A DNA stretch of 64,000 nucleotides, taken from contig JBODTK010000119.1 of the NCBI GenBank assembly GCA_050613775.1, forward strand, positions 434,001-498,000. Direction: 5' to 3'. The DNA is from Neocallimastix sp. 'constans'. Its lineage: Eukaryota. Within the stretch, counting starts at the first letter, position 1. Each line of letters starts with the position of its first letter. The notes beneath the pieces are model-generated. The model saw only the letters and a program-made list of their open reading frames with translations. It did no database searches and was not told the origin of the DNA. Shown here piece after piece: positions 4,701 to 29,351 of this stretch. The position numbers and the translations under genes were made by a program.

Positions 4701-4704
4701 CGAA

Positions 4705-5886: not shown

Positions 5887-5890
5887 CGAA

Positions 5891-6549
5891 TGATACAGAA
5901 CATTTAAAATATTCCATATCTAGTTATTTATTTATTTGGTCGTTTCTCTAGGGAATTATGACACAATAATATATTCTAATAAATATAAGAAAATAATTTA
6001 TAATAATAATGTTTTATAATAATATTTTGTTCTTTATTTATTTTTATAATTTTATTTTTACATACATAATAATTTATTATTACATTCTCTTAATTTTATA
6101 TAATTGTTAAAATAATTAATTAATATTATATTTTTATTAAACATATCTCTTTAACTATTAATTTCCTAATAACTTTATTTAAAAATACAATTTCATTATT
6201 AAATATATTTAACTATTAATATTTAAAATATATTTCCTAAATAAAATATAATTATCAATATTTATAATATAATTCCTAAAACTATATAATTCTCAAAATA
6301 ATATTTAAAATATAAAATAAAACTTATTAATAATAATGATGAATTAATTTATTATCATAATAATAGAATCATTAATAATATAATTTATCTATTTTTAATT
6401 ATGATAAAAGAATTAACCATGCTTTTAAAAATAATTATTTGAATTAACTATATATAAATTATTTTAATTATTATAACCAATAATATTTATACAATATTTC
6501 TAACCTAAATTTCTTACCTAAATCTTATTTTTATAGTGGTATCGTATCA
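5891..6549 (-). mobile_element. Solo LTR with termini like E0
   Basis: Perfect 6-bp terminal IR TGATAC...GTATCA; ends resemble the E0 LTR; CGAA on both sides; orientation inferred from E0 similarity. Confidence 0.8.
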
Positions 6550-10600: not shown

Positions 10601-11653
10601 ACTAATATCAATAGGTTCATATTCGGACGGAAGCTTATCTAAAAATTGTTGAGTAATTATACTTAAATTACTACATGAATCAATTAAAGCCTTCCCCGAA
10701 ACACCTTCAACTGTAACATCAACCATGGCAATATCCTCTTCACATGGTTCGTTACCTTTACTTTTATAAGTGTGGTCTATGTTATTAACGACCACAGTCG
10801 TGGCTGACACATTATCCAACACCCCAGAGATATTAGATTGGTCCCTATCCAATTTAATACCCTGTGACACCTTATATCTTAATTTTGGAGCAGCATCCAA
10901 TAACTGTCCAAAAGTAATATTGCAATGGGCAGAATTTAAATCTTTAAGAATATCATATTCTTCTTCCCCCGATTGCATCTTAATTTTCCTAGATACTCTA
11001 GAACTTTTATTTTCTTTTTGAGTATCTTTATCTTTACTAATTAACACCTTTGTTAAATCAATTACTTTATTATTCTCCTTCACAATACTTTTTTTATTAT
11101 CATTATTTTCTTTCATTAAATTTTTATTCTTTCTTTTATCATTATTTACATTATTTATAATAACTTCATCATTCACTAATGAATTATTATTAATATTATC
11201 ATTACTATTATCATTACTATGATTATTACTATAATTAGTATTACTATTACTAGCTCTTTCATTATCACGAATTTGTCTTTCAATCTCTTTTTCTTTTTCA
11301 ATTCGTGGTTGAGCTAGAATAGATGGTTTAATTTGTTTAACAATTTTATTACTTATATTATTTTCTTTTACTTCTCGTTCTTTCTGTTTTCGTAATGCAG
11401 GAGTTATTATAGGTTTAGGATTCTCCTTCAACGACTTATGAATCCTTTTCTCTGCACTACCTTCATCATTATTAACATCATAAATTTTACGTTTAGATGC
11501 TCCTACTAAATAATCAACTTTCTTTTTATTAACCACCCTTTTATTAGCAGGAGTTTCTTCAATATTAGAAAGACGAGAATTTTTAATTTCTTTTTGATAT
11601 TTAAGTGAAGCTGCTTTATTAAGTATGGGAGAGCTTCTTATCCCATTACTCAA
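7604..11653 (-). CDS. pol: Pol polyprotein PR-RT-RNaseH-IN, expressed by -1 frameshift
   Basis: LIDSCS protease, FIDD RT, TDAS RNase H, H..H/C..C and DDE integrase, GPY/F-like tail; gypsy domain order. Confidence 0.95.
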   Translation of the reverse strand: MSNGIRSSPILNKAASLKYQKEIKNSRLSNIEETPANKRVVNKKKVDYLVGASKRKIYDVNNDEGSAEKRIHKSLKENPKPIITPALRKQKEREVKENNISNKIVKQIKPSILAQPRIEKEKEIERQIRDNERASNSNTNYSNNHSNDNSNDNINNNSLVNDEVIINNVNNDKRKNKNLMKENNDNKKSIVKENNKVIDLTKVLISKDKDTQKENKSSRVSRKIKMQSGEEEYDILKDLNSAHCNITFGQLLDAAPKLRYKVSQGIKLDRDQSNISGVLDNVSATTVVVNNIDHTYKSKGNEPCEEDIAMVDVTVEGVSGKALIDSCSNLSIITQQFLDKLPSEYEPIDISRGRIRLATKNDDYSEGYIIRVPVKINNLVLMVNCRIVEKEDPFYDILINLKTQIDYNLFIHPILYSLCQITPEGVIDVIAPINNDYEDEEKLLCMIKALDEDSKKNDLKKIEGLSPKQYIHHEIFLNTLNEKYKDEIIKILEENLEIVATSSEELTPSDLPPHKINLIPGAKPVKQRCYRLVKFKSDILKEELIKLINKKLIEPSCSEWSSPIVLVPKKNGKWRLCIDYRKVNDLTVKDSYSLPYIDEIFDSLDGAQIFTTMDLYSGYHQILMDEESVEITTFTTKFGNYQFKVMPFGLTGAPATFQREMNRILFPFIGKFVFNFIDDILIYSKSIEEHISHIRQVLEVFRQHKLKINIEKCAFMQTEVEVLGHKASVKGLSPQDSKIKAIKEWVAPVDVHELRSFLGAVGYYRNFIDKYAQISAPLCKLLRKNVKYKWNNEHQQSFDLLKEKLINAPILKYPSFNQRFIIRTDASYEGIGGVLLQEDLETKKEHPVHYISRSLSKAEKNYGITDLEGAALIYCITKLKSYILGNPNKTVVITDHKPLISFFKNKEPNNARQARWCLTVSTLGVEIQYQMGKKNVLADALSRMKKRDDSVVLATKLTSKEEEELLSKTIKDFINEKFVTIDGEDYFVDGNDYRKLITDQTERVKLILEAHKIGHEGYYKTYQRLRKSFYWNNMVMDIKRVVQSCDKCQLNRSQPYPEPTENIPTKVEGPFIHLGLDIIGPLIKTKNNNQYIMVVVDYFTKWVEAEPTENITSQDVIKFLINVFARHGVPQVITTDNGVQFTSDMTKIFLDLYDVYVKFISTYHPESNGLTENRNKEIGKLLRLLGSKNKDWDEVLPSALWALRTTKNKVTKHSSFELVYGREDQQPFDIAARPTKDINKSSDEVLLEKFINHYRWTLEAAENVKNANKYWAARREEKNSLNEGKRIREGDLVLVRNFSRTKLEPYFVGPLKVIKKQFNTVTLADPNSGIQMNRNVHLKNIVKYNSASM

Positions 11654-11659
11654 TTTAAA
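11607..11659 (-). promoter_or_regulatory. -1 ribosomal frameshift signal: U UUA AAU plus H-type pseudoknot
   Basis: Slippery heptamer just before the gag stop; stems AUGGGA/UCCCAU and GAAGC/GCUUC. Confidence 0.8.
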
Positions 11660-12333
11660 CGTTTATTGTTTCTAATTTCCTTCCTATTTTTCTCAACAAT
11701 TGCTCTCAACTTTGGGCAATTGTTTTGATAATGACCTGGTTCTTTACAGAAATAACAAGCCTTTATTGTTAAACTTCTCATTTTTCTTGTTAATTCCTCT
11801 ATGTCATTATCTTCTTTAGGTTTAATATTAACTTTTTGTTCTAATTTATTTTTAATAGGAGGATGAAAATTAACTCTATTATTAAAAGAAGATATATTTG
11901 CAGAAGGTGAAGGGGTAGAAGGATGTCTTCTTTGATTACTACCCATATAATTTAACCTATCTGCTTTTTCAGCAATTTTAAAGGCTTTTGACAGAGAAAT
12001 GTTATCAAATAAGGTTAGACGTTTCCAGGCTTCAACATTGTTTTCAATGGAGTCTGTGTAATCTAAAACACTTATCTGACTTCTTTTCTTTTTATTTAAT
12101 TTTAAATATAAAGTTTTATACTTAATATTAAAATCCTTGATTCTTTCATTTCTCTTAATTCTTAGAGCACGTAGCTCTCTTAATAAATTATTTTGATCCT
12201 CCCTAATGCCATAAAATTCTTCTATAGCTTTTACAATTCTATTAAGGGAAGGATAAGCTTTATTCTTTTTATCAATTTCTTTATCTTCTTCATTATCATC
12301 ATCCTCATCTTCATCATTAATATCCTTATAATT

Positions 12334-12370
<37 letters not shown>

Positions 12371-12600
12371 CTATCATCATCTTTATTATTATCATCCATT
12401 AATTCTTGGATGACTTTCCTGGTTTCACCAATTGAGGTTAAAACACAGGCATAAAATATAATCTTGGAGTCTTCAACATGTTCAAGCTTTATCCAAAGCT
12501 CTAAATCAGACTTCCAAGTTTTAACATCTAAATTTTCTTTGGATATTTTTTCAATATCCTTAAGTTCTTTTTTTAAATCTTTAAAATTAATTGAACTCAT
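11650..12600 (-). CDS. gag: Gag with acidic insert and CCHC knuckle
   Basis: CYFCKEPGHYQNNC; lies upstream of pol. Confidence 0.93.
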
Positions 12601-12970
12601 TTTAAAAAAAACACACTTTTAAAAAAAAATAAAATAAAAAAATTGATTTATTAATTATTTAATTGCTATATTTTTATTTATTTATTTATTTATTTACAAT
12701 TAAAATTATATATTTAAGTAATTTATATCTCTAGTGAGACGTTTCCGGCTAGTGTATATTTAATTTTGCTATATACACCCGTACTCCCCCTCCTGGACAC
12801 TAGAATAAATATAAATTAATAAACTAGTTGGAGTGTTCACTATTCTTTCAAGCTAATAACCCCTTTCGTTTATCTTTACTTAAATAAAAAAAATATATAC
12901 AATTATTTACAAAAAAAATTTTTTTTTTTTTTAATATAGCAATTAAAAATATTTAAAAACACAAAAATTA

Positions 12971-13001
<31 letters not shown>

Positions 13002-13589
13002 ATTTATTTATTTATTTGTTATCGGTTATTATTACAATATTTACAATTACAATTACAATTACAATTATTATTAAGTTTATATAATTACAACTTAAAAAAA
13101 ACAAATAAACTTAATTAAAAACAAGGTAAATTAACAAACCTAATACAACTTGAAAAACCGCTATCTATTACAACTGCCGACCACGCAGAGGGACCTTAGT
13201 ATTTCGGTATACTAAGTGAATTTGCCTGAGTCAAGTGGAGGAGCACCCAAACCGTGTTGAACGTATAATGGGTGATCTATAGGGTAATTTCTGCTTCCCA
13301 ACAGTATTTACCGCTATATCTAATCGGGGTTCGATTAGTTCGTAACCGGCCCCTCTCCAAACACCTGATTAAACCACTCGCAATTATAGAATTATCTATA
13401 ACTGCTTAGTACGCAGTAAACTCAGTATATAGTTTTATTTGGAGCACGCGAAGACCAAATAAAACTGATGTTAATTTTTATTACTACCACAACAACAACA
13501 ATCACAACAACAACACCAACCACAACAACAACACAAAAACCGATAACAATAAAAAAAAAATTTGATGATGATGATTGTAAAAGTGTAAA

Positions 13590-13647
<58 letters not shown>

Positions 13648-13744
13648 TAATTTAATTTAATTTAATTCTATTAAATTTAATTTAAAAAAATTATTCTCAT
13701 AATTCCAAAAAAAAAATAAGTCCTAGTAGTTCCAATTTCCTTCT

Positions 13745-14162
13745 TGGTCTTCTCCTTCTTGGTCTCTTCTTCTTGGTCTTCTTCTTGGTTTTCTTCTTGG
13801 TCTTCTTCTTGGTTTTCTTCTTGGTCTTCTTCTTGGTTTTCTTCTTGGTTTTCTTCTTGGTTTTCTTCTTGGTTTTCTTCTTGGTCTTCTTCTTGGTTTT
13901 CTTCTTGGTCTTCTTCTTGGTTTTCTTCTTGGTTTTCTTCTTGGTTTTCTTCTTGGTTTTCTTCTTGGTCTTCTTCTTGGTCTTCTTCTTGGTTTTCTTC
14001 TTGGTCTTTTTCTTGGTCTTCTTCCACTTGGTTTTCTTCTTGATCTTCTTTTTCTTGGTCTTCTTCCACTTGGTTTTCTTCTCGATCTTCTTTTTCTTGG
14101 TCTTCTTCCACTTGGTCTACTTCTTCTTCTTCTTCTTCTTCTTCTACTTCTTCTTCTTCTTC

Positions 14163-14194
<32 letters not shown>

Positions 14195-14291
14195 CTTCTT
14201 CTTCTTCTTCTTCTTCTTCTTCTTCTTCTTCTTCTTCTTCTTCTTCTTCTTCTTCTTCTTCTTCTTCTTCTTCTTCTTCTTCTTCTTCTTC

Positions 14292-14323
<32 letters not shown>

Positions 14324-14329
14324 CTTCTT
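13745..14329. repeat. (TTC)n microsatellite (~14120-14329) plus 12-bp minisatellite TCTTCTTGGT(T/C)T in the E2 leader
   Basis: Directly visible; begins immediately 3' of the PBS on the element strand. Confidence 0.95.
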
Positions 14330-15398
14330 CCCCGATATCTCCACCAATTTTGGTAGACTCGGGGTTGACACTTAGATATTTAAAATCAAGCAGGGGGGGA
14401 CGGGTATTACCCTGCTTTGATTTTAAATAAAAAAAAAAAATAATAATTTTTTTTTTTAAAAGTTATTTATTTATTTTTTTTTATTAATATAAAATTTTTT
14501 ATTTAAAGTACACACATTTAATTTTTAAGAAATTGTTACAATATTTATATTTTTTTATAAATTTAAAGTATAATTAATTGTTTATAATTTAAGTAATTTT
14601 ATAGAATTATTGAATTAATTTTATATCAATAATTCATTTTTGTTTTAATTTTTATAAATATAATAATATAATATTCAAATATAATTTAATTAAAAATAAT
14701 TATAAAATAAATATATAGAAAATAGTTTTTACTATTTTCTTTGATATTTTTAAGTTAAATAAATTGTTTTTAAAGATTAATATAATAAATTTAATAATCT
14801 TTAATTATTTTAAATAATACTTGTAATTATTTTCAAAATAAAATAAAATTTTTATAATATTTAATTAATAAATTTGATAATATTTAAATAATAATTTTTA
14901 TAATAAGTAAAATTTTTAATAATAATTTTTAATAATAAATTTAATTAATAATCTTAATAATTTTATAATAATATTTAATAGTTATAATATATAAATTTTT
15001 ATAATAATATTTAATAATTTTAATAATTTTATAATATTAATAATTTATAATAATTTTTAGAATAATATTTAATTAATAATTTTAATAATTTTATAATAAT
15101 TTTTATAATAATATTTAATTAATATTTTTAATAATTTAGTATCTTAAAAGTATAATTTTAATATTTACAATTGTATTTTAATATATACATATATTTAATA
15201 ATATAACAATAAAGTGATTAATTAAAATTTATTTACATTATTTACAAATTAAAATTAATTTATATCAAAATAAATTAAATTTACAATGAGGTTTAGGTTA
15301 TGAAGAATATAGGAAAGTACAATTTAGTAAAGAATTATTAATAATAAAATAAAGGTTATTAATTCATTCTTTAGCACGAATCTTAAAAATAATTAACT

Positions 15399-15452
15399 TG
15401 TCTTAGTTGTTAGTAACTAAGTCACCGATTTGAACTTCTCGAGTTCAAATCC
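15399..15452 (+). promoter_or_regulatory. Pol III type-2-like A box (degenerate TGTCTTAGTTG) and B box (GAGTTCAAATCC) in the C LTR; second copy at 29651-29704
   Basis: B box fits GTTCRANNC; A-to-B spacing 44 nt as in tRNA genes; T5 run at 15463-15467. Confidence 0.6.
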
Positions 15453-15921
15453 GCATAATTTCTTTTTATAAAAAAATTTATTTTAAAAAATTCTTATCTT
15501 ATCAAAAATTATTTTAAAAAGTTCTTATCTTATCAAAAAAAATTTTTTTTTATCAAAAATTTTATCAAATTATCTTAATTGGTTTAAAATTACATCATAA
15601 AAAATTTCTTTTGAAAATTTTTTGTATAAATACGAGTGAATTTTTCTTCAAAAAATATTTTTAAAAAATCGTGTTTTTTATTAATTATTTAATAAGTAAT
15701 TTAATTACAAATTTTTAATTAATAAATAAAAAAAAAAAATAAAAATAAAAATAAATTTTAACTTTAAAAAAAATAATAAATTCTTTTTTATTAAAAAACT
15801 TTTTACTTATTTATTTTTTATACAAACCTAGTGGTGTTAATTATTTTGGGTTACGCCCCGAATTCACGTTACAATAAAAAACACCACTGAAAAGAACCAC
15901 TACCTTTGTATAAATTCTTTC

Positions 15922-16099
15922 TTTTGGTTTCTACCCTTCAAGATATACTTTTGGTTTCTACCCTTCAAGATATACTTTTGGTTTCTACCCTTCAAGATAT
16001 ACTTTTGTTTCTACCCTTCAAGATATACTTTTGGTTTCTACCCTTCAAGATATACTTTTGGTTTCTACCCTCCAAGAAATACTTTTGGTTTCTACCTTC
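15922..16099 (+). repeat. 27-bp tandem repeat (TTTTGGTTTCTACCCTTCAAGATATAC) in the C leader, about 6.5 copies; continues at 24708-24780
   Basis: Directly visible; split by the solo LTR S insertion. Confidence 0.9.
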
Positions 16100-16597
16100 T
16101 GTAACGAAATCTTCATGATAAGAATGTACTAAATAATGCATTCTTAATTAAATCTACGATTTATTTCTAATACATTATGTGTACATTATTATTTTTGTAC
16201 TTTAATAAATTTTTAAATCCAAAGATCAAAAATTAAATCAAAAATTATATTAAACTTTATATTTTTATATTAAATCTTATATTAATAGTAATATTTTTAT
16301 ATATTTAAAACTTATATTAGCAATATTAATAATAAATCTTATTTTTTTTATATTAATAATGAAAATTTATATTAATAATATTTTTATATATTGATAATTA
16401 AAAATTTATATATTATATTTTAACTTTTTATTATAAAATTTTATATCGAAATGTTTTATTTTATATTGAAAAATATTTTATTTTATTAAAAACCTTTATA
16501 TTAGAATAGTATTTTTATTTTTATTTGAATATTTTAACAGATTGTAATAAAAATTTTAGCCAATTAAATAAATTCTTATTAGTAATATTTTAGATAG

Positions 16598-16645
<48 letters not shown>

Positions 16646-18314
16646 TATTAATATTATAAATGCATTTTATTTATATTGTTATAATTAAATTTTATATAAT
16701 TGATTATAAAAATCAATTTAAATTTAATAGTTTCATATATAAAAAGAAAAATAATAATAAAATGTAATTTAGTGGCAAGAACAACTTTTATGCCTTGAAA
16801 AAAAAGTATAAATAGTTGTAAATTTTGCTACTAATTTTTAAATATCATCAAATAAAATCAAATAAATTTATAAATAAAAATAATAAATAAATAAATAAAA
16901 TTTGTGTTTCCTTACTTTATTTTTATTTAATTCTCTAAAACCTTAACATTTATATGGTGGAGATATCGGGGAATTAAATAGAAATAATAGTAAATAACAT
17001 AGATTTTTTTTTAATTTTTTTTTTATTTTATATTGATAAACAAGTAAGTCGTTAATCCTTTGATTAACCCATGGCGCTTGTTTGATATATATATATAAAA
17101 AAATTTTTTTTAAATAAGTAAAATTAAGATTCTAAAAAAACAAATTTTGTAAAATTATAACAAGGAGCGGATAGAGCTCATACACAGTGTATTCTCAGAT
17201 AGCAACAAATTAACTCTATTCATAGTAGGTTATTGAATAGTAGTTAATTTGGAGATTAATTGGAAAGTAGACGAAGGTATTTGGTTACCGACCCGGTAAT
17301 AATAGTTCAACCTTCAACGTTTCAACACACGAAGGTGCGGGTACTTTCCAAGCACTGGCGAATAAGGAGCTTACGTCACCGAAGGCGTAAGATTGTTTTT
17401 TTTATATAATTTTTTTTACTTTTCTTTGTGCTAGTTATAAGGCACTTTATTATATAAAGTATCAGACTTTGGCTAACTTCGCCATTTAAATTTTTTTTAT
17501 TTTTTTTTATTACTGGTACTTTATTTGTTATATAATTCCTGTAATAGAATCTTAATTTACTTTGAAAATATTGTGTTTTTAGTTAATTTTTATTAGTTAA
17601 TAAAAATATTATTGAATACTTTTAAAATTTTTTTATTCCGTACATAGATTATCGGATTAAGTTTATCCTACATAGTAATTGGGCTAGTGGGCTCTGAACT
17701 GCTATATTTTATATTGAATATAGTAATCGTGGCACACGCGTGGCATGACACCATTAGGTAAGCTGCACGTCAGACAGTGTGTACTATCAGATTGTACGAC
17801 AATAAAGATTATTTTTTTGTATTTAATAATTATAATTAATTAATAATTTTATTAGCTATAACAATACAATATTTATCGTTTAAAAAGAAAAATTTTTGAA
17901 AGGTGAAAATAATAAATAAAACTTTGCTTCTAAATTTATTACTACAAATATACTAAATTACAAAATTCAAGTGGTCGATAAAGATTTCGAGCTTGAAAAA
18001 TATTCTATTAAGTTGTCGATAAAGATTTCGAACTTAAAATTATTCTATTAAGTTGTCGATAAAGATTTCGAACTTAAAATTATTCTTAAAAAAGTAGTCG
18101 AAAAGAACCTCGTGCTTTATAATTTCTACTAAGTTGTCGATAAGGATTTCGAGCTTATATCTACTAAAGAAAGCAAATAAAATTATTATTTTCAAAAGTT
18201 ACTAAAATATATTGTTTTAAAAATTGATTCGATATTAAATTACCTATTAAATTACATTTTGAAAGTTGGATTTCCCAAATTTATTTGTATTTAATCACCT
18301 CATATTTAGACAAA

Positions 18315-19226
18315 ATGTCCAAAGAAACAACTTTGAGCTTTAAAGAATTGAAAAAAGAATTGAGAGATATTGTGAAACTTAGCAAGGACAATTTAGATAT
18401 TAAGTCCTGGGCTACTGAATTGAAACTTTGGATCAAGATACAAGGTATCACAGATCCAGAAACAATATTTAATGCTTGTTTACTTACCAGCTCTGGTGAA
18501 GTACAACGCGTTATTGAAGATTTGGGAGAAGATAGTGATGATGAAAGTGATGATTCATCAGATGAAGAAGAAGAACATGATGAAGAAGAAAATGTTGATG
18601 ATGATATTAAATTTCCTTCTCTTGGAAAAATTATTTCAAGTCTTGAAAATTTTTACGGTATTAAAGAAGACCAAAATTTACTTCTTAAAGAACTTCGTGC
18701 AATGCGAATTAAAAGAAACGAAAAGATTAAGGACTTTAATGTAAGATATAGAACTTTGTACACTAAACTTGATAAAAAGAGAAGAAAGCGCATCGGTGTA
18801 CTAGATTATATTGATTCTATTCAAAATAATTATGAAGCCTGGAAGAAATTATCCCTTAAAGATGATATAAGTATGGAGAAAGCTTTCAAAATTGCCGAGA
18901 AAGTAGATAGACTTTCTGTAAGGAACAATAATATTAATACCTATAATGTTAATAATTCCCAGCATAATCAAAATAATCAAAACAGTACTACTTCAAGACT
19001 TTATCCTAAAAGAAGAAACGAAACTTTCCAAACAAGTCAAACAAATAATAAACTGAAACCTCAAGATATTATAGAAGAATCAACCCAGAAAATGAGAAAT
19101 TTATCTGTTAAAACTTGCTTCTTCTGTAAGGAAGAAGGTCATTACTCATACTATTGCCCTCAATTAAATAAGATTATGGAAAAAAATAAAAAAGAAATAT
19201 ATTCCAAAAAGTCTTTAAACTTCTAA
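18315..19226 (+). CDS. gag: Gag with CCHC knuckle
   Basis: ATG at 18315 (MSKETTLSFKELKKEL); CFFCKEEGHYSYYC; homologous to E2 Gag. Confidence 0.93.
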   Translation: MSKETTLSFKELKKELRDIVKLSKDNLDIKSWATELKLWIKIQGITDPETIFNACLLTSSGEVQRVIEDLGEDSDDESDDSSDEEEEHDEEENVDDDIKFPSLGKIISSLENFYGIKEDQNLLLKELRAMRIKRNEKIKDFNVRYRTLYTKLDKKRRKRIGVLDYIDSIQNNYEAWKKLSLKDDISMEKAFKIAEKVDRLSVRNNNINTYNVNNSQHNQNNQNSTTSRLYPKRRNETFQTSQTNNKLKPQDIIEESTQKMRNLSVKTCFFCKEEGHYSYYCPQLNKIMEKNKKEIYSKKSLNF

Positions 19227-19266
19227 ATGGGAGCAGAAGCACTCCCAATGACAAAACAATAGCTTC
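19214..19266 (+). promoter_or_regulatory. -1 frameshift signal: U UUA AAC plus H-type pseudoknot
   Basis: UUUAAAC at 19214-19220; stems UGGGAG/CUCCCA and GAAGC/GCUUC; the -1 frame is open into pol. Confidence 0.85.
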
Positions 19267-22200
19267 ATTAAATAATTTACAAAATAATACTTTTACTAAG
19301 AATACTCCAATTGATAATAATTCCTTTAATGAAGAATCTGAAGAATCTGATTTTAGTGACACAACTGAAAGTGAGGATGATATCATTATAAATGCTATAA
19401 AAAGAAAAATGAATGATAATAACAGCGAAAAAGAAGAAAATAATTCCAAGAAAGTACATAAAAGTTTAAAAGATAATCCACGTCCTTTCGCAACTCCTGC
19501 TTTAAGAAAGAAGAAAGAAAATGAGCTACATAATAAACCAAATAAAGTTTATAAAAATCAAATACTTCCTTCAATTTTAACTCAACCAAATATTAACAAA
19601 GAAAAACAAAAAGAAAAGGAATTAAGAAAAATAACAAGAGTAAGAGAAAGTAAAGAAGAAAACAACAATTATTCATCAAAAGGAAAGGAAAAAGTTGAAT
19701 CTGAAGATATACTCGTAATCGATAATGAAATAGAAGATCTAGAAATGAATAAAGATAATCAACAAAATAAAACTAATACTTTGGAAAAATTAATTTCAAC
19801 AAAAACTAAAGAAACTAATAATGGAAATACTCAGTTAGTAAAAAGGAATATTAAAATGATGAATAATAAAGAACCTTACAATATTATGGATGATTTAAAT
19901 AATCTTAAATCCAGTATTACGATAGGTCAACTCTTGAATGCATGTCCGAAAATTCGTTCACAATTAACTCAAGGTTTAAAGTTAGAAAAGTCTAAAATAA
20001 TTGGGACTGTAGACAATGTAATAGCACGAACTTTATTAGTAAATAACTATGATCATAGCTACATAAGTAAAAGTAATGAAGTAGCCGAAGAAGACTTAGC
20101 AATGGTTGATGCAAGTGTTGACGGAGTACTAGGAAAACTTTTAATTGATTCTTGTAGTAACCTAAGCATCGTTACTAAGCAGTATTTTGATAAATTACCT
20201 GGTGAATATGAAACAGTTGGAAAAAGTCGTGGAAGAATCCAACTAGCAACACAAGATGAAGAATACTCGGAAGGAATTATTGTTCGATTACCAGTAAAAA
20301 TTAATAATTATGAATTTAATGCGGACTTTAGAATTATTGAGAAAGAAGACTCTTTTTATGATATGTTAATAAACTTTAAAACTCAAATCGATCATTGTTT
20401 ATTTATTCATCCGACCTTAAACAGTTTATGTAAACTTTTGTCAGAAAGTGAATACGAAGAAATAGCTAAAATAAATAATCAATATTATGATGAAGAAAGT
20501 ATAATTTGCACTATTAGAAAAGTTAAAGAAACGAATAATGAAAAGGAAATTATAAAGGAATTAACTCCAATGGAATTTATTGAGAGTGATGAATTTTTAA
20601 GTACCTTAAATAAAGATTATAAAGAACAAATTATTAAAATTCTCAAAGAAATGATTGACATAGTTGCCACTTCAACAGAAGAACTAACTCCTTCTAAACT
20701 TTCACCACATAAGATCCGTTTAAAAGCAAATGCAAAGCCAGTAAAATTAAGAAGTTATAGGTTAACTAAATTAAAATCAGATATCTTAAAAGAAGAACTT
20801 ACAAAACTTATTAAGAAAGGATTGATAGAACCATCCTGTTCAGAATGGTCATCTCCAGTAGTACTTATTCTAAAACACAATGGAAAGTGGCGCTTGTGCA
20901 TTGACTACCGAAAAGTCAATGATATGACAGAAAAAGATTCTTATTCAGTTCCATATATAGATGAAATTTTTGATAGTCTCGGAGGATCTAAAATATTTAC
21001 AACTCTTGATTTATTTTCTGGTTTTCACCAAATCTTAATGGATGAAGAAAGCGTTGAAGTAACCACTTTCACTACTAAGTTTGGAAATTATCAATTTAAG
21101 GTTATGCCTTTTGGACTTACTGGAGCTCCCTCAACCTTCCAAAGAGAAATGAATAAAATTTTATTCCCTTTTATTGGTGAATTTGTTTATGTATTTATTG
21201 ATGATGTTTTGATCTATTCAAAAAGTATCGAAGAACATTTAATTCATATTAAACAAGTATTAGAAGTATTTAAAGAAAACAAGTTAAAAATTAATATTGA
21301 AAAGTGCCATTTTCTTCAAACTGAAGTTGATGTATTAGGTCACAAACTTACTACTAAAGGATTAAGTCCCATGGAAAGTAAGATAACAGCTATTAAGAAG
21401 TGGGAAGCCCCTTCATCACTTCATGAATTAAGATCATTTTTAGGAGCAGTGGGATATTATCGTGATTTTATTCCTAAATATGCTCAAATTACCTCACCTT
21501 TATGTAAATTATTGAAAAAGAATACTAAATATGAATGGAATAAAGAACAACAAGAAAGCTTTGAACTCCTAAAAGAAAAATTAATCAATGCACCTATTCT
21601 AAAATTTCCGTCATTTGACAAACCTTTTATCATTAGAACTGATGCTTCGTATAATGGAATTGGTGGAGTTCTTTTACAAAAAGAAGAAGAAACCGGTAAG
21701 GAGCATCCAATACACTTTATAAGTAGAAGTTTAAAGAAAGCTGAAAAGAATTATGGTATTACCGATTTAGAAGGAACCGCTTTGTTTTACTGTATGACTA
21801 AATTTAAATCTTATATTGAAGGAAATCCATTACCTACAACTATTTACACAGATCATAAACCATTAGTTGGTTTATTTAAGAATAAAGAACCTTTGAATGC
21901 AAGGCAAACAAGATGGTGTCTAACCGCTAGTATGCTTGGAATTAATATAAAATATGAATCAGGCAAAAAGAATGTGTTAGCTGATGCTCTTTCAAGAATG
22001 AAAAGTAAGGAAGAGAGAAAGATATTATTAACAAAAATTACTAATGGAAATAATGAAGAATTATTATCTAAGGTTATAAAGGAATTTATTAATGAAAAGT
22101 TTACTGTTATTGATGGTGAAGATTACTTTATCGACAATGGAAATTATAGAAAATTAATAACGGACGAAAATGAAAGGTTTAAATTAATTTTAGAAGCTCA

Positions 22201-23224
22201 TAATATTGGCCACGAAGGATATTACAAAACATATCAAAGACTTAAGAAAAACTTTTATTGGAATCATATGATTAAAGATATCAAAAGAATTGTTAGTAAT
22301 TGTGAAAAATGCCAATTAAATCGTCCTCAACCATATCCAGAACCAACCGAAAACCATCCAACTAAAGTGGAGGGTCCCTTTGTGCATTTAGGATTAGATA
22401 TTATAGGACCGTTACCAAAAACAAGAAATAATAATCAATATATTATAGTAACTGTTGATTACTTTACCAAATGGGTTGAAGCCGAACCCACTGAAAACAT
22501 AACTTCCTCTGATATAATTAAATTTTTAATAAACGTTTTTGCAAGACATGGTGTACCTCAAGTTATTACTACTGATAATGGAGTCCAATTCACTTCTGAT
22601 ATGACTAAAATCTTTCTTGATCTTTATGATGTATATGTTAAATTTGTAGCTACTTACCACCCTGAATCAAATGGCCTTACTGAAAATCGAAATAAAGAAA
22701 TTGGAAAATTACTCCGTTTATTAGGAAGGAAAAATCAAGATTGGGATGAAGTTTTACCTTCTGCTTTATGGGCACTTCGAACTACCAAAAATACAGCTAC
22801 TGGACATTCTAGTTTTGAATTAGTATATGGAAGAGAAGACCAACAGCCTTATGATATAGCCATAAGAACAATTGAAAATGCAGGTAAATCATATGATGAA
22901 ATCTTAATGGAAAAATTTGTTCGTCATTATCAATGGACTAGAGAAGCATGCGAAAATGTGAAGAATGCTAACAAGTATTGGGCAACAAGACGAGAAGAAC
23001 AAATAAGTATGAAAAAAGGAAAAGAATTAAAGGCTGGTGATCTTGTTCTTGTTAGAAACTTTAGCCGCACTAAGCTAGAACCATATTACAATGGACCATT
23101 TAAAATTTTAAAAATTCAATTCAACACGGCAACCCTAATCGATCAGAAGACTGGAAAGCAACTCGATAGGAATGTTCACTTTAAAAATTTAGTAAAGTTT
23201 AACTCCGCTTACAGAGAAGCTTGA
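19214..23224 (+). CDS. pol: Pol polyprotein PR-RT-RNaseH-IN
   Basis: LIDSCS, FIDD, TDAS, HHCC/DDE, GPF motif; frame open from the slippery site, upstream of the ATG at 19409. Confidence 0.95.
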   Translation, partial: FKLLNGSRSTPNDKTIASLNNLQNNTFTKNTPIDNNSFNEESEESDFSDTTESEDDIIINAIKRKMNDNNSEKEENNSKKVHKSLKDNPRPFATPALRKKKENELHNKPNKVYKNQILPSILTQPNINKEKQKEKELRKITRVRESKEENNNYSSKGKEKVESEDILVIDNEIEDLEMNKDNQQNKTNTLEKLISTKTKETNNGNTQLVKRNIKMMNNKEPYNIMDDLNNLKSSITIGQLLNACPKIRSQLTQGLKLEKSKIIGTVDNVIARTLLVNNYDHSYISKSNEVAEEDLAMVDASVDGVLGKLLIDSCSNLSIVTKQYFDKLPGEYETVGKSRGRIQLATQDEEYSEGIIVRLPVKINNYEFNADFRIIEKEDSFYDMLINFKTQIDHCLFIHPTLNSLCKLLSESEYEEIAKINNQYYDEESIICTIRKVKETNNEKEIIKELTPMEFIESDEFLSTLNKDYKEQIIKILKEMIDIVATSTEELTPSKLSPHKIRLKANAKPVKLRSYRLTKLKSDILKEELTKLIKKGLIEPSCSEWSSPVVLILKHNGKWRLCIDYRKVNDMTEKDSYSVPYIDEIFDSLGGSKIFTTLDLFSGFHQILMDEESVEVTTFTTKFGNYQFKVMPFGLTGAPSTFQREMNKILFPFIGEFVYVFIDDVLIYSKSIEEHLIHIKQVLEVFKENKLKINIEKCHFLQTEVDVLGHKLTTKGLSPMESKITAIKKWEAPSSLHELRSFLGAVGYYRDFIPKYAQITSPLCKLLKKNTKYEWNKEQQESFELLKEKLINAPILKFPSFDKPFIIRTDASYNGIGGVLLQKEEETGKEHPIHFISRSLKKAEKNYGITDLEGTALFYCMTKFKSYIEGNPLPTTIYTDHKPLVGLFKNKEPLNARQTRWCLTASMLGINIKYESGKKNVLADALSRMKSKEERKILLTKITNGNNEELLSKVIKEFINEKFTVIDGEDYFIDNGNYRKLITDENERFKLILEAHNIGHEGYYKTYQRLKKNFYWNHMIKDIKRIVSNCEKCQLNRPQPYPEPTENHPTKVEGPFVHLGLDIIGPLPKTRNNNQYIIVTVDYFTKWVEAEPTENITSSDIIKFLINVFARHGVPQVITTDNGVQFTSDMTKIFLDLYDVYVKFVATYHPESNGLTENRNKEIGKLLRLLGRKNQDWDEVLPSALWALRTTKNTATGHSSFELVYGREDQQPYDIAIRTIENAGKSYDEILMEKFVRHYQWTREACENVKNANKYWATRREEQISMKKGKELKAGDLVLVRNFSRTKLEPYYNGPFKILKIQFNTATLIDQKTGKQLDRNVHFKNLVKFNSAYREA

Positions 23225-23724
23225 GTCTTCGTCGGGGCATCTTGATAAGAATGTACTAAATAATGCATTCTTAATTAAATCTACGATTTATTTCTAATAC
23301 ATTATGTGTACATTATTATTTTTGTACTTTAATAAATTTTTAAATCCAAAGATCAAAAATTAAATCAAAAATTATATTAAACTTTATATTTTTATATTAA
23401 ATCTTATATTAATAGTAATATTTTTATATATTTAAAACTTATATTAGCAATATTAATAATAAATCTTATTTTTTTTATATTAATAATGAAAATTTATATT
23501 AATAATATTTTTATATATTGATAATTAAAAATTTATATATTATATTTTAACTTTTTATTATAAAATTTTATATCGAAATGTTTTATTTTATATTGAAAAA
23601 TATTTTATTTTATTAAAAACCTTTATATTAGAATAGTATTTTTATTTTTATTTGAATATTTTAACAGATTGTAATAAAAATTTTAGCCAATTAAATAAAT
23701 TCTTATTAGTAATATTTTAGATAG

Positions 23725-23772
<48 letters not shown>

Positions 23773-24098
23773 TATTAATATTATAAATGCATTTTATTTA
23801 TATTGTTATAATTAAATTTTATATAATTGATTATAAAAATCAATTTAAATTTAATAGTTTCATATATAAAAAGAAAAATAATAATAAAATGTAATTTAGT
23901 GGCAAGAACAACTTTTATGCCTTGAAAAAAAAGTATAAATAGTTGTAAATTTTGCTACTAATTTTTAAATATCATCAAATAAAATCAAATAAATTTATAA
24001 ATAAAAATAATAAATAAATAAATAAAATTTGTGTTTCCTTACTTTATTTTTATTTAATTCTCTAAAACCTTAACATTCAGTTAGTAAAATTAGAACTT

Positions 24099-24151
24099 TG
24101 GTTCAATGGTTAGTTACATTGACCATGACCAATACTTCATGGGTTCGACTC
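24099..24151 (+). promoter_or_regulatory. Pol III A box (TGGTTCAATGG) and B box (GGGTTCGACTC) in solo LTR S
   Basis: Both boxes are close to tRNA consensus; 44-nt spacing; T4 run at 24165-24168. Confidence 0.75.
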
Positions 24152-25173
24152 ACACCTCAACCCATTTTGCATAAATAATTATTTTATTAATTATTTTATT
24201 AATTATTAATAATATTTTCTTGAATATTCTTTCTGTATAAAATTATAGAAAGTTAAAGATTCTTTCGGTTCGTAATTCAACCGAAATGAATTTAGAAATT
24301 CTTATTATATAAATTATTTTATTCTTTTTTGATAAGATTCATTTTCATCAATTAAAATCTATATTCTAGAAACTTTACATTATTAATTATTACAAACATA
24401 TTTCTAAATATTTCTTTAAAATTATTTTTACATGTTAAAACTGTTTTTCCGTTAAAAGTATAAATAGTGCGAACTTCACGAATGAAAATATTTTTCTTCG
24501 TGCTTTTATTAATAATAATTAACGTATAAGTAATTCGAAATATTACCTTGTTGATTAATATTAATAATTATTTTAAATTTTATAATTAATAAAAAATATT
24601 TCTAATAAAACGAATTATTTATACAGATAGTGTAAACCTATTGAGTTTTCTCCTTTCTGTGTTTCTATATCTCATCCCGCCTTTACAATAGAAGCACCTC
24701 CGTTACACCTTCCAAGAAATACTTTTGGTTTTTACCTTTCTTTGATTTCAAGATATACTTTGGTTTCTACCTTTCAAGTTTTACCTTTAGTTACTACTTT
24801 GAATTCTTACTTTAGGCTCCTATATTTTTGCATTATTCAGTGTTTCACTGTGCTTCAACGTTGAATTTCTACCTTTGAGCTTTACTTTTTGTATTTACTT
24901 CTTGTTTTTACTGTTTTGAGTCTTTTCTACCTTTTAGTATTATCCTCTTTATTGGTATCCCTACAACTACTTTGGTGAACTTCTATTCAGATATATTCCC
25001 TTGGTTTTCCAATTACTCCAGGACTTAATTCTACTATTTGATTTCTTACTACTAGTAAACCTTGTGTTTTAAAGCAATCCTAAACATCCTAAAAATATAA
25101 AATTTAGGTTCAGTCTAACAAAATTTATAATCGTATTCAAATCTTGATAAAATTCTTAAAAATTTAATTTAAA

Positions 25174-28100
25174 ATGGAAGATCAAAATAATATTTTAAAT
25201 AATGCTACTCTTAAAGATGGTTTTGCAGGAGACCGTCGTTACTTAAAGGGTTTTTTAGCAAAAATTGAATTGGTTTTTATGCTGTACCCAGACAGATACA
25301 ACACCGATGAAGCTAAAGTCATATATCTTATATCTAGACTTTACGGTGATGCTATGAACTGGGCAGCTACTTTAATTGAAAACAGGGATGACTGTCTTGG
25401 AGATTATCAAGCATTTAGAGAAAGAATGAAAGCTGTTTTCGGAGACAACGACTCAGTATTTATCGCCAATCAAAAACTACGTGTAATTAAACAACGAAGA
25501 CTTGGTGATATTACAAGTTATATTAATGAATTTAATAAATATTCCGATAATTCTTCTTGGAATGAGGATGCAAAAATGGATGCTTTCATTGATGGTCTTC
25601 AAGATTCTATTGCAACAAGAATATTAGAAATGTTTCCTGGTCCCAGAAATCTCCTTTCCCTTCAAACTATTGCAGCAAGAATTGATTCTAGAATTTCTAC
25701 ACATAGACAATTTTTTAATCATAATAAGCATTCAAATGATAATAAAACATGTCCAAAGTTTACTCCAAAAAAGAAATCTTCAAATAACAATAATAAATCT
25801 TTTAGTAAGCTTTCTAATGAAGAAAGAGAAAGAAGAATTAGAGAACATCTTTGTCTTTATTGTGCCGATCCAGATCACATTCGTGAAAATTGCCCTAAAT
25901 TAAAAAAGAATAAACCTTCTTCAAGTTCTCACATTTCAAATCCTGTTTTAAATTCAACTCTTAGGCCAAGAATTTCTGACCAACCTAACCACAGGCTTCC
26001 AATCTTTGATTTCACTCTTTCTATTTCGGACGTTTCAGTTAATTCAAAGATTCTTCTGGATTCAGGTTCTCAACTTAATCTTATGGACGTTTATTACGCT
26101 AAAGAAAATAACATTCCCTATAATGAAAATTCTAAATTACCGAGCGTTTCCGGTATTGGAGGTGATCAATTAATTCTGGGAAAAACTTTACCAATATCAC
26201 TCAAATACGGAAATCACATTTGTCAAGCTGAATTCTACATTGTTGATTTACCCTCTTACTGTGCTATACTTGGTACTGACTGGTTATTCACACACAATCC
26301 GACAATAAATTTCGTAACTAAAGAACTATCCTTTAAGTCTAGCAATTGTATTTCAAATTGTTTACTAACTCCAAATTCTTTTACAGCTCATATTTCTTCT
26401 CCTACAACTGTCCCTTCTACAAAAGAAAAGGAACCTGCTACTGTTGATAGAATATTAAAATTATTGCCTACTATACTTCAACCTTATAAAGATATTTTTG
26501 ATGAAGGATCTGCAAACATATTACCACCACATAGGCAGTATGATTGTGAGATTAAGCTTAAGCCTAACTCTATCCTTTATTATGGCCCTATCTACCCGCT
26601 TACTGATGCTGAGTCTAAAGCTCTTAAAGAATATATTGAAGAAAATCTCTCAAAAGGCTTTATTCGTAAATCCAAATCTCCTGCTGGTGCTCCTGTATTT
26701 TTCGTTTTTAAGAAGAATGGTGAATTACGTATGGTTGTTGATTACAGAAAACTTAACGAAATAACAATTCGGGACTCTTATCCATTACCACTTATTAATG
26801 ACATGCTCGAACATTTAGGTAAAGGTAAAGTATTTTCAAAACTCGATCTCCGTTCTGCATATAATCTTGTAAGAATAAAAGAAGGAGACGAGTATAAAAC
26901 AGCTTTTACCTGCAAGTATGGCCACTTTGAATATTTGGTTATGCCTTTCGGGTTAAAAAATGCCCCAGCTGTTTTCCAACACTTCATTAATGATGTATTC
27001 GAAGATATTCTTGGTACATATGTCTACTGTTATATCGATGATATTATAATCTTCTCCCCAGATATGTCTTCTCATTTTGAACACGTTATCGAAGTTCTCA
27101 AAAGACTTCGTAAAGCTGGTCTTTTTGCGAAACTAGAAAAATGTGAATTCTTTGTCTTACTTAGATTTCTTTGGTCATAGAATTTCTGCTACAGGTATAT
27201 TTATGGATCCCAAAAAGATTTCTTCAATTCTTGAATGGCCTACTCCAACTTGCGTAAAAGAAATTCAATCTTTCCTTGGACTCACAAATTATTATAGAAG
27301 ATTTATTCCTGGATTTGCCAAGTTAGCCCATCCACTTAATCATCTTTTAAGAAAGAACGTTAAATTTGTATGGTCAATTGAAGCTCAAGAAGCTTTTGAT
27401 AATATTAAATCGAAATTTTCCTCTTCTCCGGTCCTTGCTTACCCTGATCGTAACCTACCCTTCACTGTTGAAACTGACAGCAGTAATTTTGCAATCGGTG
27501 CTGTCCTTTCTCAAAAGACTCCTAAAGATAATAAAGTTCATCCTATTGCCTTTTATTCAAGATCTCTCTCTCCTGTTGAAAGAAATTATCCAATTTACGA
27601 TAAGGAACTTTTAGCTATTATTGATTCTTTAGAAAATTGGAGACACTTTCTAAAGGGTGCGACTCATCCTTTTATTATCTACTCTGATCACCGAAACCTG
27701 TTATATCAAAAGAAACCTGAAAAAATGACTCAAAGACTTGTTCGTTGGTCTCTCTTCTTATCAGAATTTAACTTCAAGATTGAATATCGTTCAGGTTCTT
27801 CCAATGGTAAACCCGATGCCTTATCAAGAAGACCTGATTATGCTTTGAATTATGAAATTTCCACTTCTGATATTCCATTTACTGTTCTCCGCCCAGAAAA
27901 CTTTTCTGCTTTTCCAGTCTCTGTTGAAACATTTTCTGAAAAAATCCTTTCCGAATGTAAAACCGATCCATTTTATCATTCCATTTGCGATTACTTAGAA
28001 AACAAGAAATTACCTGTCCCTCATCAAAAAATTAAGGAATTCTCAATTAGTAACAGCTACTTACTTTTCCAAAATAAACTCTATGTTCCTCCCAACTGCC

Positions 28101-29351
28101 GGTCTTTAGCCTTGAAAATTTGTCATGACTCTCCATCCGCAGGTCATTTTGGTTTTAAAAAACTATTAATCTCTTAAATCGTGACTTTTGGTGGCCTTCC
28201 CTTAACTCTGACGCTCAAGACTACATCCGATCTTGCGAAACTTGTTGTCGTTCAAAGGTACTCCGACATAAACCTTACGGATTTTTACAACCTTTGGAAA
28301 TCCCTTCTCGTCCTTGGTCTTCAGTCTCTATGGATTTTATTACTGATTTATCACTTTCCAATGGGTTTACTTGTATATTTGTTACCGTTGATCGTTTTTC
28401 CAAGATGTCTCACTTCATTCCTTTTGCAAATATCCCTTCTGCTATTGATACCGCTTCTGCTTTCATGAAATCGATCTTCAGACTTCATGGACTCCCTGAT
28501 GAAATTCTTTCCGATCGTGGATCCCAATTCACTTCTAAATTTTGGATTGCTATCTGTAAAGCTCTTGGAATTAATATGAAATACTCTTCACCATTCCATC
28601 ACCAAACCAACGGTTTGACGGAGAGGGTGAACTCCGTTGTAGAACAATACCTTAGATGTTTCACAAATTTCAAAGGATTAGATTGGGAGAATTATCTCTA
28701 TTTAGCCGAATTCAGTTACAATAATGCTCTCCAGGAATCTTCTAATTATTCTCCTTTTTTTGCAAATTACGGTTACAACCCAAGACATTCTCCTGAAATT
28801 CCAAGTATCATAAATGTTCCCAGAGCTGAAGAACTTGTGAAGAACTTAACAGATCTATCTAAAGAATTAAAGAAGAACTTAGAGTCTGCAAGCAAAAAGC
28901 AGGAAGAATATGCAAATAGACACCGAATTAAACCTCCAGAATTTAAAACAAACGACAAAGTCTGGCTAAATAGCTCCTTAGTACTCAGAAATAAGAACAA
29001 GAAACTTAAACCAAGAAAACTCGGTCCTTTCAAAATATTCAGAAAGTATCACCAGTTACCTATAAATTAGATCTTCCGAAGAAATTACGAATTCATCCCA
29101 TTATTCATGTCTCAGAACTTGAACCCTACTACGAAGATACTTTTGGAAGAAATCAACCACCACCACCAGTAATAGTCAATAATGAAGAAGAATATGAAGT
29201 CGAGAAAATATTGGATAAAAGAACTTACTATGGAAAAATTCAATATTTAATCAAATGGAAAGGTTATCCAATTTCAGAATCTTCATGGGAACCCGAATCT
29301 AATTTAAATTGTCCTGAACTTCTTAAGGATTTCAATTCAAGGGATAAATAA
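25174..29351 (+). pseudogene. Gag-Pol of chromovirus C with group I chromodomain, broken by about 3 frameshifts
   Basis: CLYCADPDHIRENC, LLDSGS, YIDD, TDSS, integrase, [12 protein letters not shown]...YLIKWKGYP...SWEP; frameshifts near 27150, 28170 and 29040 (real decay or assembly error). Confidence 0.9.

What the first reader, a model, noticed from the sequence alone, without database searches (positions are those of the whole stretch)
15377..24151. Chromovirus LTRs carry Pol III A/B boxes, and Ty3-like elements land 19-20 nt upstream of the A box: an LTR-borne landing pad or trap
Seen: in LTR C the TSD ends at 15380, the A-like box starts at 15399 and the B-box G is at 15443. In solo LTR S the TSD ends at 24079, the A box starts at 24099 and the B-box G is at 24143. 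A-B spacing is 44 nt in both and TSD-to-A-box distance is 19 and 20 nt, although the TSD sequences differ (CGAA vs TTCA) and lie at different distances from the LTR end. Established: Pol III starts about 18-20 nt upstream of the A box; yeast Ty3 integrates at Pol III start sites via TFIIIB/TFIIIC, and Dictyostelium DGLT-A targets upstream of tRNA genes. Inference: the E0/E1/E2/EB clade is Pol III-targeting and parasitises, or is decoyed by, a mobile tRNA-like promoter spread by a chromovirus.
Basis: partly seen in the sequence, partly recalled or inferred. Interest (0 to 1): 0.95.

Follow-up and report, generated by a model that had tools for sequence, protein, structure and literature searches.

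The report
Retrotransposon LTR carries another's landing site
In a gut fungus, one family of jumping genes carries tRNA-promoter-like motifs at the tip of its terminal repeats, and a second, unrelated family has inserted five times in a row at one base position 19 bases in front of one such motif and once 20 bases in front of another, likely because it homes in on the RNA polymerase III machinery that these motifs would recruit.

Summary
Observation confirmed and larger than reported. At least five LTR elements or solo LTRs (EB, E0, E0 solo, solo X, E1) are stacked head to tail, each pair separated by the same 4-bp CGAA. The stack ends at nt 6-9 of the 5' LTR of chromovirus C, 19 nt before an A box (2 mismatches) and 63 nt before a perfect B box. 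E2 sits in solo LTR S at TTCA, 20 and 64 nt before perfect boxes; S also has CGAA at nt 6-9, unused. The host is probably Neocallimastix. The spacing equals that of Tj1, Ty3 and DGLT-A at tRNA genes, so Pol III start-site targeting is the best reading (0.7). It rests on two related sites; other copies and real tRNA genes could not be examined. The E clade works like Ty3 but is not close to it: no chromodomain, 4-bp TSD, and chromovirus D2 scores higher against Ty3. The cassette is not a tRNA gene. C is an autonomous-type, likely self-priming family with the cassette in U3, so 5'-LTR hits would be harmless: a mobile safe harbour, not a shown trap. New variant of known kinds.

The parts
2..829 (-). 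EB gag (runs off the window's left end)
   Evidence: tblastn 25% identity to E2 and E1 gag, E 1e-11 and 7e-10; no hit to C or D gag
993..1594 (-). EB 5' LTR (starts TGATACGG); PBS at 970-985 (tRNA-Arg assignment recalled)
1595..1598 (+). CGAA target-site copy
1599..4700 (-). E0, non-autonomous element; LTRs 1599-2125 and 4174-4700 (525 of 527 identical); same PBS and PPT type as E1/E2
4701..4704 (+). CGAA target-site copy
4705..5886 (-). E0-family solo LTR, interrupted at 5181-5835 by a 655-bp solo LTR with a 5-bp TSD (AAATT)
5887..5890 (+). CGAA target-site copy
5891..6549 (-). solo LTR X (659 bp, TGATAC...GTATCA); placed in the E group only by its termini and 4-bp TSD
6550..6553 (+). CGAA target-site copy
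6554..15376 (-). E1, full element; LTRs 6554-7580 and 14351-15376 (1 substitution, 1 indel); gag 11650-12618, pol 7604-11662 with RT, RNase H, IN, no chromodomain
15377..15873 (+). 5' LTR of chromovirus C from nt 6; begins with the promoter-proximal CGAA
15399..15410 (+). A-like box of LTR C (2 mismatches), in the stem of hairpin 1
15442..15452 (+). B box of LTR C, one arm of an 11-bp palindrome
15463..15467 (+). first T run after the B box, predicted Pol III terminator (RNA of about 85 nt)
   Evidence: function inferred
15671..15681 (+). 11-mer complementary to the 11 nt right after LTR C (15874-15884): predicted self-primer and Pol II start, LTR nt 301; TATAAATA about 45 nt upstream
   Evidence: 3 of 5000 shuffles
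16100..16115 (+). first 16 nt of solo LTR S (holds an unused CGAA at nt 6-9 and the TTCA target copy); S is flanked by the 5-bp TSD CCTTC in the 27-bp repeats of C's leader
16116..24075 (+). E2, full element; identical 833-bp LTRs (16116-16948, 23243-24075); gag 18228-19226, pol 19190-23224, no chromodomain; PBS TGGTGGAGATATCGGGG (tRNA-Ala assignment recalled)
24076..24707 (+). TTCA target copy and the rest of solo LTR S
24099..24109 (+). A box of LTR S (0 mismatches)
24142..24152 (+). B box of LTR S; first T run at 24165-24168
25174..29348 (+). C gag-pol-chromodomain; matches intact 1392-aa P0121 at 98-100% in four pieces in different frames (three frameshifts in this copy)
29624..30139 (+). 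intact 3' LTR of C with the same boxes (A 29651, B 29695) and no insertion

Best explanation
Two related chromovirus LTR families (C and S) carry A/B-box motifs at the extreme 5' edge of the LTR, and a separate chromodomain-less Gypsy clade (E) has inserted at a fixed 19-20 nt before those boxes, likely because the boxes recruit TFIIIC/TFIIIB and the E integration complex is likely tethered to the RNA polymerase III start site, as for Ty3, Tj1 and DGLT-A. Shown: the boxes, the spacing, 4-bp TSDs, and at least five insertions at one position. Inferred: because the promoter is internal, each insertion leaves it intact and the next element cuts the same four bases beside it, pushing older elements away. 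Inferred: C's genomic RNA starts at about LTR nt 301 by Pol II with Tf1-type self-priming, so the cassette is in U3, is copied from the 3' LTR into every new copy, and hits at nt 6-9 of a 5' or solo LTR are neither inherited nor damaging to C's RNA. The chromovirus thus spreads new, harmless landing sites. Why C keeps the cassette is a guess: most likely a TFIIIC/Pol III boundary that shields its LTR promoter in the heterochromatin that chromoviruses target, with a two-hairpin RNA of about 85-90 nt as the second option.
For: Same offset to A (19, 20) and B (63, 64) at two sites with different TSDs and different LTR positions. S has the same TGTAACGAA start as C but its CGAA was not used. Five different elements use one 4-mer although the upstream DNA changed each time. 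Chance that the second site matches the first offset within 1 nt if uniform in the LTR is 0.005. Offset equals 11-12 bases before tRNA nt 1; Tj1 inserts at -10/-11 in most rows seen of its Table 1 (PMC4600332), DGLT-A on average 15 bp (PMC5006619). Control: five non-E insertions (S, D1, D2, the 655-bp solo LTR, one copia) make 5-bp TSDs where read and lie 397 nt or more from any relaxed B box; no B box in 9 other LTRs but one, a copia LTR with a relaxed match. Cassette is 39-43% GC in LTRs of 9-16% GC, with no T run of 4 or more inside and one just after. In four runs no variant at 5% or more is listed across S's boxes, while 7 are listed in the next 250 nt. One contig joins an E2 LTR end to an E2 LTR start over TTTT, which fits stacking at another locus.
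Against: Only two target sites, in related LTRs, so they are not fully independent. No tRNA gene lies in the window, no genome is held, and none of the 8 E-clade loci fetched shows a flank, so insertion beside real tRNA genes is unseen. The 3' LTR of C has the same boxes and no hit. C's A box has two mismatches, yet it is the hotter site. The one flank consensus at the E2 LTR 5' end (4 contigs, agreement 0.59) shows no A box at the expected offset; it mixes loci, and in the window it is E2's other end that faces the box. E1 and E2 are different families (78% identical IN) and could differ in sequence preference. The TTTT junction differs by one base from an expected 2-LTR-circle junction. Both cassettes fold strongly (z -3.5 and -5.0), so structure rather than TFIIIC could be what is conserved.
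Confidence: 0.7

Rival explanations
1. E elements target the 5' edge of C/S-type LTRs through a feature other than Pol III, such as the double hairpin or cruciform, or a protein bound at that LTR end; the A/B likeness is a relic of an old SINE or tRNA capture.
For: Both cassettes fold into two hairpins; C's B box is one arm of an 11-bp palindrome; the two targets are related LTRs (shared start and PPT).
Against: A and B consensus positions are kept at 44 nt in two LTRs that are otherwise about 47% alike (AT-rich background); the offset equals that of three known Pol III-targeting lineages; a terminator-like T run follows in both.
Confidence: 0.14
2. The boxes bind TFIIIC only (an extra-TFIIIC, insulator-type site without transcription) and E is tethered by TFIIIC, as proposed for DGLT-A through its RNase H.
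For: C's weak A box and perfect B box; E's short IN tail lacks the chromodomain that Ty3 uses for Brf1; DGLT-A RNase H binds Tfc4 (PMC6101501 abstract); TRE5-A inserts at bare A/B loci (PMC5391098 abstract).
Against: Ty3 does not use extra-TFIIIC sites in yeast (PMC5911963 passage); single-base precision at the predicted start site fits a TFIIIB-set ruler. This rival shares the box-dependence of the best explanation.
Confidence: 0.1
3. First hits were chance; E elements then stack by recognising the end of a resident E LTR.
For: Each junction is LTR end-CGAA-LTR end; an E2-E2 junction exists in another sample.
Against: Needs two chance first hits at the same offset from rare boxes (74 of 128,000 strand-positions); E2 in S is a single insertion with no resident E element; stacked elements have dissimilar ends.
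Confidence: 0.06

Closest known systems
Ty3 (S. cerevisiae), Tj1 (S. japonicus), Tyl3/Tyl6 (Y. lipolytica), Tca8 (C. albicans)
   Same: Gypsy elements inserting at the Pol III start site; Tj1 at -10/-11 and Ty3 typically within 20 bp of mature tRNA nt 1 (PMC4600332, PMC6673722, PMC5911963 passages); here the equivalent is 11-12.
   Different: Ty3, Tj1 and Tyl3 make 5-bp TSDs (papers read), E makes 4-bp. Ty3 binds Brf1 with a vestigial chromodomain (10.1101/2021.07.27.453949 passages); E's alignment to Ty3 stops at residue 1444 of 1547 and its IN ends there. E2 scores 358.8 bits against Ty3 Gag-Pol, chromovirus D2 518.9 (RT/RNase H only: 282.3 and 304). The target here is a box cassette in another element's LTR.
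DGLT-A (Dictyostelium)
   Same: No chromodomain, short IN tail (32 aa; E 36-63 aa from GPY/F in 37 of 109 rows scored), canonical PBS, about 15 bp upstream of tRNA genes, several elements at one gene (PMC5006619 passages).
   Different: DGLT-A has one ORF and is described as related to the chromovirus Skipper; E has separate gag and pol frames. No DGLT-A sequence was available, so kinship was not tested.
Helenus / Cassandra / Ajax (TRIMp3; Kojima 2024, PMC10886601, parts 1-4 of 6 read)
   Same: LTRs with tRNA-type A and B boxes and no working cloverleaf; found in fungi.
   Different: Those are non-autonomous TRIMs of 311-1263 bp, fungal ones Copia-dependent, in Pucciniales and Agaricomycetes; the paper expects autonomous partners to use Pol II and not to share such LTR sequence. 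C is a roughly 6-kb chromovirus family with an intact Gag-Pol-chromodomain protein. The parts read report no second element targeting the boxes.
TRE5-A at A/B-box loci of Dictyostelium rDNA (PMC5391098, abstract)
   Same: A Pol III-targeting retrotransposon uses bare A/B boxes without tRNA context.
   Different: Non-LTR element, about 47 bp upstream, and the boxes are host rDNA, not mobile.
Tf1/sushi self-priming chromoviruses
   Same: 11-nt complement between the post-LTR sequence and an LTR site, no TGG PBS (Tf1 rule from PMC7175516 passage).
   Different: No A/B cassette is described for them in the papers seen; D1/D2 in this window self-complement the same way and have no B box.

Membership tests
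Chromovirus (element C) | Gypsy order RT-RNase H-IN with C-terminal chromodomain | tested here: met
   Pfam domains; P0121, 100% identical over 99% of the query, carries PF00385 and maps to 25174-29348
Chromovirus (solo LTR S) | LTR of a chromodomain-bearing element | tested here: inconclusive
   Shares start TGTAACGAA, end GTTACA, 5-bp TSD and a C-like PPT; its coding region was not seen
Tf1/sushi self-priming group (C) | 11-nt complement between PBS and RNA 5' end | tested here: met
   perfect 11-mer at LTR nt 301, 3 of 5000 shuffles; RNA start not mapped
Ty3 lineage (E clade) | closer to Ty3 than chromoviruses are; vestigial chromodomain; 5-bp TSD | tested here: not met
   scores; no chromodomain; 4-bp TSD. 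Ty3 itself was not in the tree
Pol III-targeting Gypsy (functional class) | TSD about 10-16 nt before tRNA nt 1 equivalent | tested here: met
   11 and 12 bases at 2 of 2 E target sites in the window
Pol III-targeting Gypsy (functional class) | most copies genome-wide lie at Pol III genes | tested here: inconclusive
   no genome; 8 E-clade loci without flanks; one mixed flank consensus
Pol III-targeting Gypsy (functional class) | dependence on intact boxes and TFIIIB/TFIIIC contact | not testable with these tools
   needs ChIP and integration assays
DGLT-A lineage | monophyly with DGLT-A; single ORF | tested here: inconclusive
   single ORF not met; no DGLT-A sequence for a tree
Ylt1-like non-chromoviral fungal Gypsy | RT monophyly with Ylt1 | not tested
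   no Ylt1 sequence among the hits; 4-bp TSD and Ala primer for Ylt1 are recalled only, so this is a lead
Helenus (TRIMp3) | A and B boxes in the LTR | tested here: met
Helenus (TRIMp3) | non-autonomous, under about 1.3 kb, no ORF | tested here: not met
   C encodes Gag-Pol-chromodomain
tRNA gene | cloverleaf recognised by tRNA models | tested here: not met
   ARAGORN 0 genes; Rfam no tRNA match at E up to 1 in the window and up to 10 in the two cassettes

The most novel reading that the evidence does not exclude
Autonomous gut-fungal chromoviruses have domesticated a working Pol III/TFIIIC cassette at the U3 edge, as a portable anti-silencing boundary or small-RNA gene, and a large independent Gypsy clade (113 RT rows across anaerobic fungi) has evolved Pol III start-site targeting without a chromodomain and now uses these mobile cassettes as a main, self-renewing supply of targets: one retrotransposon manufactures the niche of another, building nested clusters by rule.
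Probability: 0.3. Interest if true: 0.82.

Novelty: new variant of a known kind. Interest (0 to 1): 0.62.

Why it matters
It would add an independent origin of Pol III start-site targeting, in an early-diverging fungal phylum and with an integrase that lacks Ty3's targeting chromodomain. It would show A/B boxes in the LTR of an autonomous element, which the Helenus paper thought unlikely. It gives a rule for how nested retrotransposon clusters grow: the number of safe targets is set by another element's copy number and not by host tRNA genes. A precise, recently active, site-specific integrase would also be of use for anaerobic fungi, where gene insertion tools were reported lacking (PMC5796279, start of abstract, 2018). 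Ten literature searches listed no paper on Pol III-targeting elements in Neocallimastigomycota or on one element targeting boxes in another's LTR; the library lacks most subscription journals and Repbase entries.

Tried and rejected
No whole genome is held and the loci's records cannot be searched. Exact search for the LTR C cassette in metagenome contigs: 0 hits. Integrase scan of metagenome contigs: 80 loci kept from a partial scan (17 of 64 parts); 8 are E-clade (47-98% identity), none showed an insertion flank, tRNA gene or cassette. Viral contigs: no relative of E integrase or of C polyprotein. PBS pattern in prokaryotic genomes: 98 matches; the 80 listed are titled as bacteria or archaea and were not used. 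Earlier findings: none for this genome or sequence; 7 unrelated word hits. Laying contigs on the E2 3' LTR and S did not cover the E2 LTR 3' end well enough to read flanks; occupancy of other LTR C copies was not measured. Rejected: cassette as tRNA gene; sequence-specific targeting of CGAA (unused in S); assembly artefact or recombination tandem (different elements, exact TSD at each joint); membership of the Ty3 lineage; 'trap' (hits are outside C's predicted transcript). The RT tree is the quick method only, midpoint-drawn, without Ty3, DGLT-A or Ylt1. LTR divergence (E1 1 substitution in 1026, E0 2 in 527, C 3 in 496) fits youngest-nearest-the-boxes but is too small to order events. No supplementary files were read; the Helenus tables S1-S3 could list a gut-fungal family.


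Full report
Setting. The window is 24% GC and made of nested LTR retrotransposons. Relatives of the E2 polyprotein include Orpinomyces models, and its 90% cluster holds a Neocallimastix lanati protein, so the host is an anaerobic gut fungus, probably Neocallimastix. Of 24 sequencing runs listed, 20 hold half or more of the sampled words of 21500-24800, from 17 studies. No whole genome is held.

Observation. In LTR C the TSD CGAA ends at 15380, the A-like box starts at 15399 (2 mismatches to the recalled consensus) and the B-box G is at 15443. In solo LTR S the TSD TTCA ends at 24079, a perfect A box starts at 24099 and the B-box G is at 24143. The strict B motif occurs 5 times in the window, all in C or S LTRs, against 1.09 expected; the relaxed motif occurs 16 times. 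Only 74 of 128,000 strand-positions lie 16-22 nt before a relaxed A..B pair.

The stack. Left of LTR C lie, in order away from the boxes: E1 (6554-15376), solo X (5891-6549), an E0 solo LTR (4705-5886), E0 (1599-4700) and EB (LTR 993-1594, running off the window). Each joint is LTR end, CGAA, LTR end. All five appear to face the same way, LTR start towards the boxes (solo X by its terminus only); E2 in S faces the other way. EB gag matches E1/E2 gag and not C or D gag; E0 shares the PBS and PPT type of E1/E2. Different elements with an exact 4-bp duplication at each joint mean successive integrase events at one position, not recombination. C's LTRs differ at 3 of 496 aligned positions, so the five events are recent. 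Five is a lower bound, because the far end is outside the window.

What sets the position. S begins with the same TGTAACGAA as C, yet E2 used TTCA at nt 13-16 and not CGAA at nt 6-9; this keeps the distance to the A box (20 against 19) and B box (64 against 63). In the stack the upstream DNA was replaced at each event while the cut stayed put, so the ruler is read from the box side, unless elements recognise resident LTR ends. Controls: S, D1, D2, the 655-bp solo LTR and one copia lie 397 nt or more from any relaxed B box, and the first four have 5-bp TSDs. The offset equals 11-12 bases before tRNA nt 1. Tj1 inserts at -10/-11 in most rows of the part of its table that I saw (PMC4600332, passages), DGLT-A on average at 15 (PMC5006619, passages), Ty3 1-4 bp upstream of the start site (PMC5911963, passages; PMC6673722, passages).

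The cassette. It is not a tRNA gene. In both LTRs it is a GC-rich island (39% and 43% against 9% and 16%), has no run of four T inside and one just after the B box, which predicts an RNA of about 85-90 nt. Both fold into two hairpins, one holding the A box and one the B box (z -5.0 and -3.5 at best). It is part of the family LTR: both C LTRs have it, and intact S follows a C-like PPT in 3 of 4 runs laid; one 596-nt contig covers 24076-24551 with one difference; no variant at 5% or more is listed over the boxes, against 7 in 24216-24458. Depth over the boxes is lower than downstream in two runs, which may be an edge effect or mean that some S copies differ there.

The carrier. C belongs to an autonomous-type chromovirus family: P0121 (1392 aa, 18 members, chromodomain) is 98-100% identical to this copy, which has three frameshifts. 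The 11 nt after C's 5' LTR have a perfect complement at LTR nt 301 (3 of 5000 shuffles; same arrangement in D1, 12 of 5000), the Tf1 self-priming signature (PMC7175516, passage). So the genomic RNA likely starts about 200 nt downstream of the cassette, which is then in U3. Inference: the cassette is passed on through the 3' LTR, and insertions at nt 6-16 of 5' or solo LTRs are outside the RNA, so they neither hitchhike nor kill C. That is a landing pad; a trap or a harm is not shown. That the 3' LTR is unhit fits selection or the GC-rich PPT upstream of it, but is one case.

The visitor. E1 and E2 have gag and pol in separate frames, RT-RNase H-IN, no chromodomain; none of the 120 relatives listed carries the chromodomain family. 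In 37 of 109 E-clade rows where my pattern found GPY/F near the end, 36-63 residues follow; in 23 of 25 C-clade rows mostly 107-112. A quick RT tree of 145 rows puts E1 and E2 in a clade of 113 rows (SH-aLRT 99), apart from C, D1 and D2 (100) (no Ty3, DGLT-A or Ylt1 in it). Against Ty3 Gag-Pol, E2 scores 358.8 bits and D2 518.9 (queries of 874 and 979 aa). Ty3 reaches Brf1 through a vestigial chromodomain (10.1101/2021.07.27.453949, passages), a region E lacks. So E works like Ty3 or DGLT-A but is likely an independent origin; a TFIIIC contact as for DGLT-A (PMC6101501, abstract) or an SH3-TBP contact are candidates.

Against. Two related sites only. No E copy was seen beside a real tRNA gene: the 8 E-clade loci had no flanks. 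The single flank consensus (4 contigs, agreement 0.59) shows no A box at the expected offset, though it mixes loci. The hotter site has the weaker A box. One E2-E2 junction over TTTT fits stacking elsewhere but could be a circle junction. Nothing here shows binding or transcription.

Comparison and novelty. Pol III start-site targeting by Gypsy elements, stacking at one gene, use of bare A/B boxes (PMC5391098, abstract) and A/B boxes in LTRs (Helenus, PMC10886601, parts 1-4 of 6) are each known. Not found in ten searches: boxes in the LTR of an autonomous chromovirus, their use as a target by a second element, or any such targeting in Neocallimastigomycota. I also saw passages of PMC5014426 (Tyl3) and PMC3248453 (Ylt1-like elements in fungi). 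tRNA-Ala and tRNA-Arg primer labels and the box consensus are recalled.

Verdict. Real feature; new variant of known kinds. Best explanation 0.7; box-dependent readings together 0.8. Interest 0.62; the bold reading has probability 0.3 and would deserve 0.82.

Noticed in passing
window 30398-37180 and 42897-50129: Two related chromoviruses D1 and D2 with 773-bp LTRs ending TG...TA rather than TG...CA, 5-bp TSDs (ATTGC, TTCCC) and an 11-nt self-priming complement at LTR nt 611; each is inserted in a copia element. D1's ORF stops before the chromodomain.
   Followed up: partly
window 5181-5835: 655-bp solo LTR with 5-bp TSD AAATT inside the E0 solo LTR; far from any box; family unassigned.
   Followed up: partly
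window 15896-16099 and 24708-24800: 27-bp tandem repeats in C's leader, into which solo LTR S inserted.
   Followed up: no
window 13635-14330: Long 12-bp-period purine/pyrimidine repeat just inside E1's PBS.
   Followed up: no
window 16949-16954, 14345-14350, 986-992: E-clade PBSs lie several bases (about 4-7) from the LTR end rather than the usual 1-3.
   Followed up: no
window 15374-15376: E1's 5' LTR starts TGC while its 3' LTR starts TGG: the only substitution between them is at the third base, next to the target site.
   Followed up: no
window 38492-39352 with 52297-52380 and 57867-58072: Inverted similarities that may be ends of a DNA transposon enclosing the copia nest.
   Followed up: no
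L004:900-1460: E-clade relative with PPT, LTR, PBS and then a second PPT-like tract and TG start, perhaps a small TRIM or a collapsed assembly.
   Followed up: no
window 17020-17800: E2's long leader has GC-richer conserved-looking blocks, partly echoed in L001 and L002; possibly structured RNA or a subgenomic promoter.
   Followed up: no
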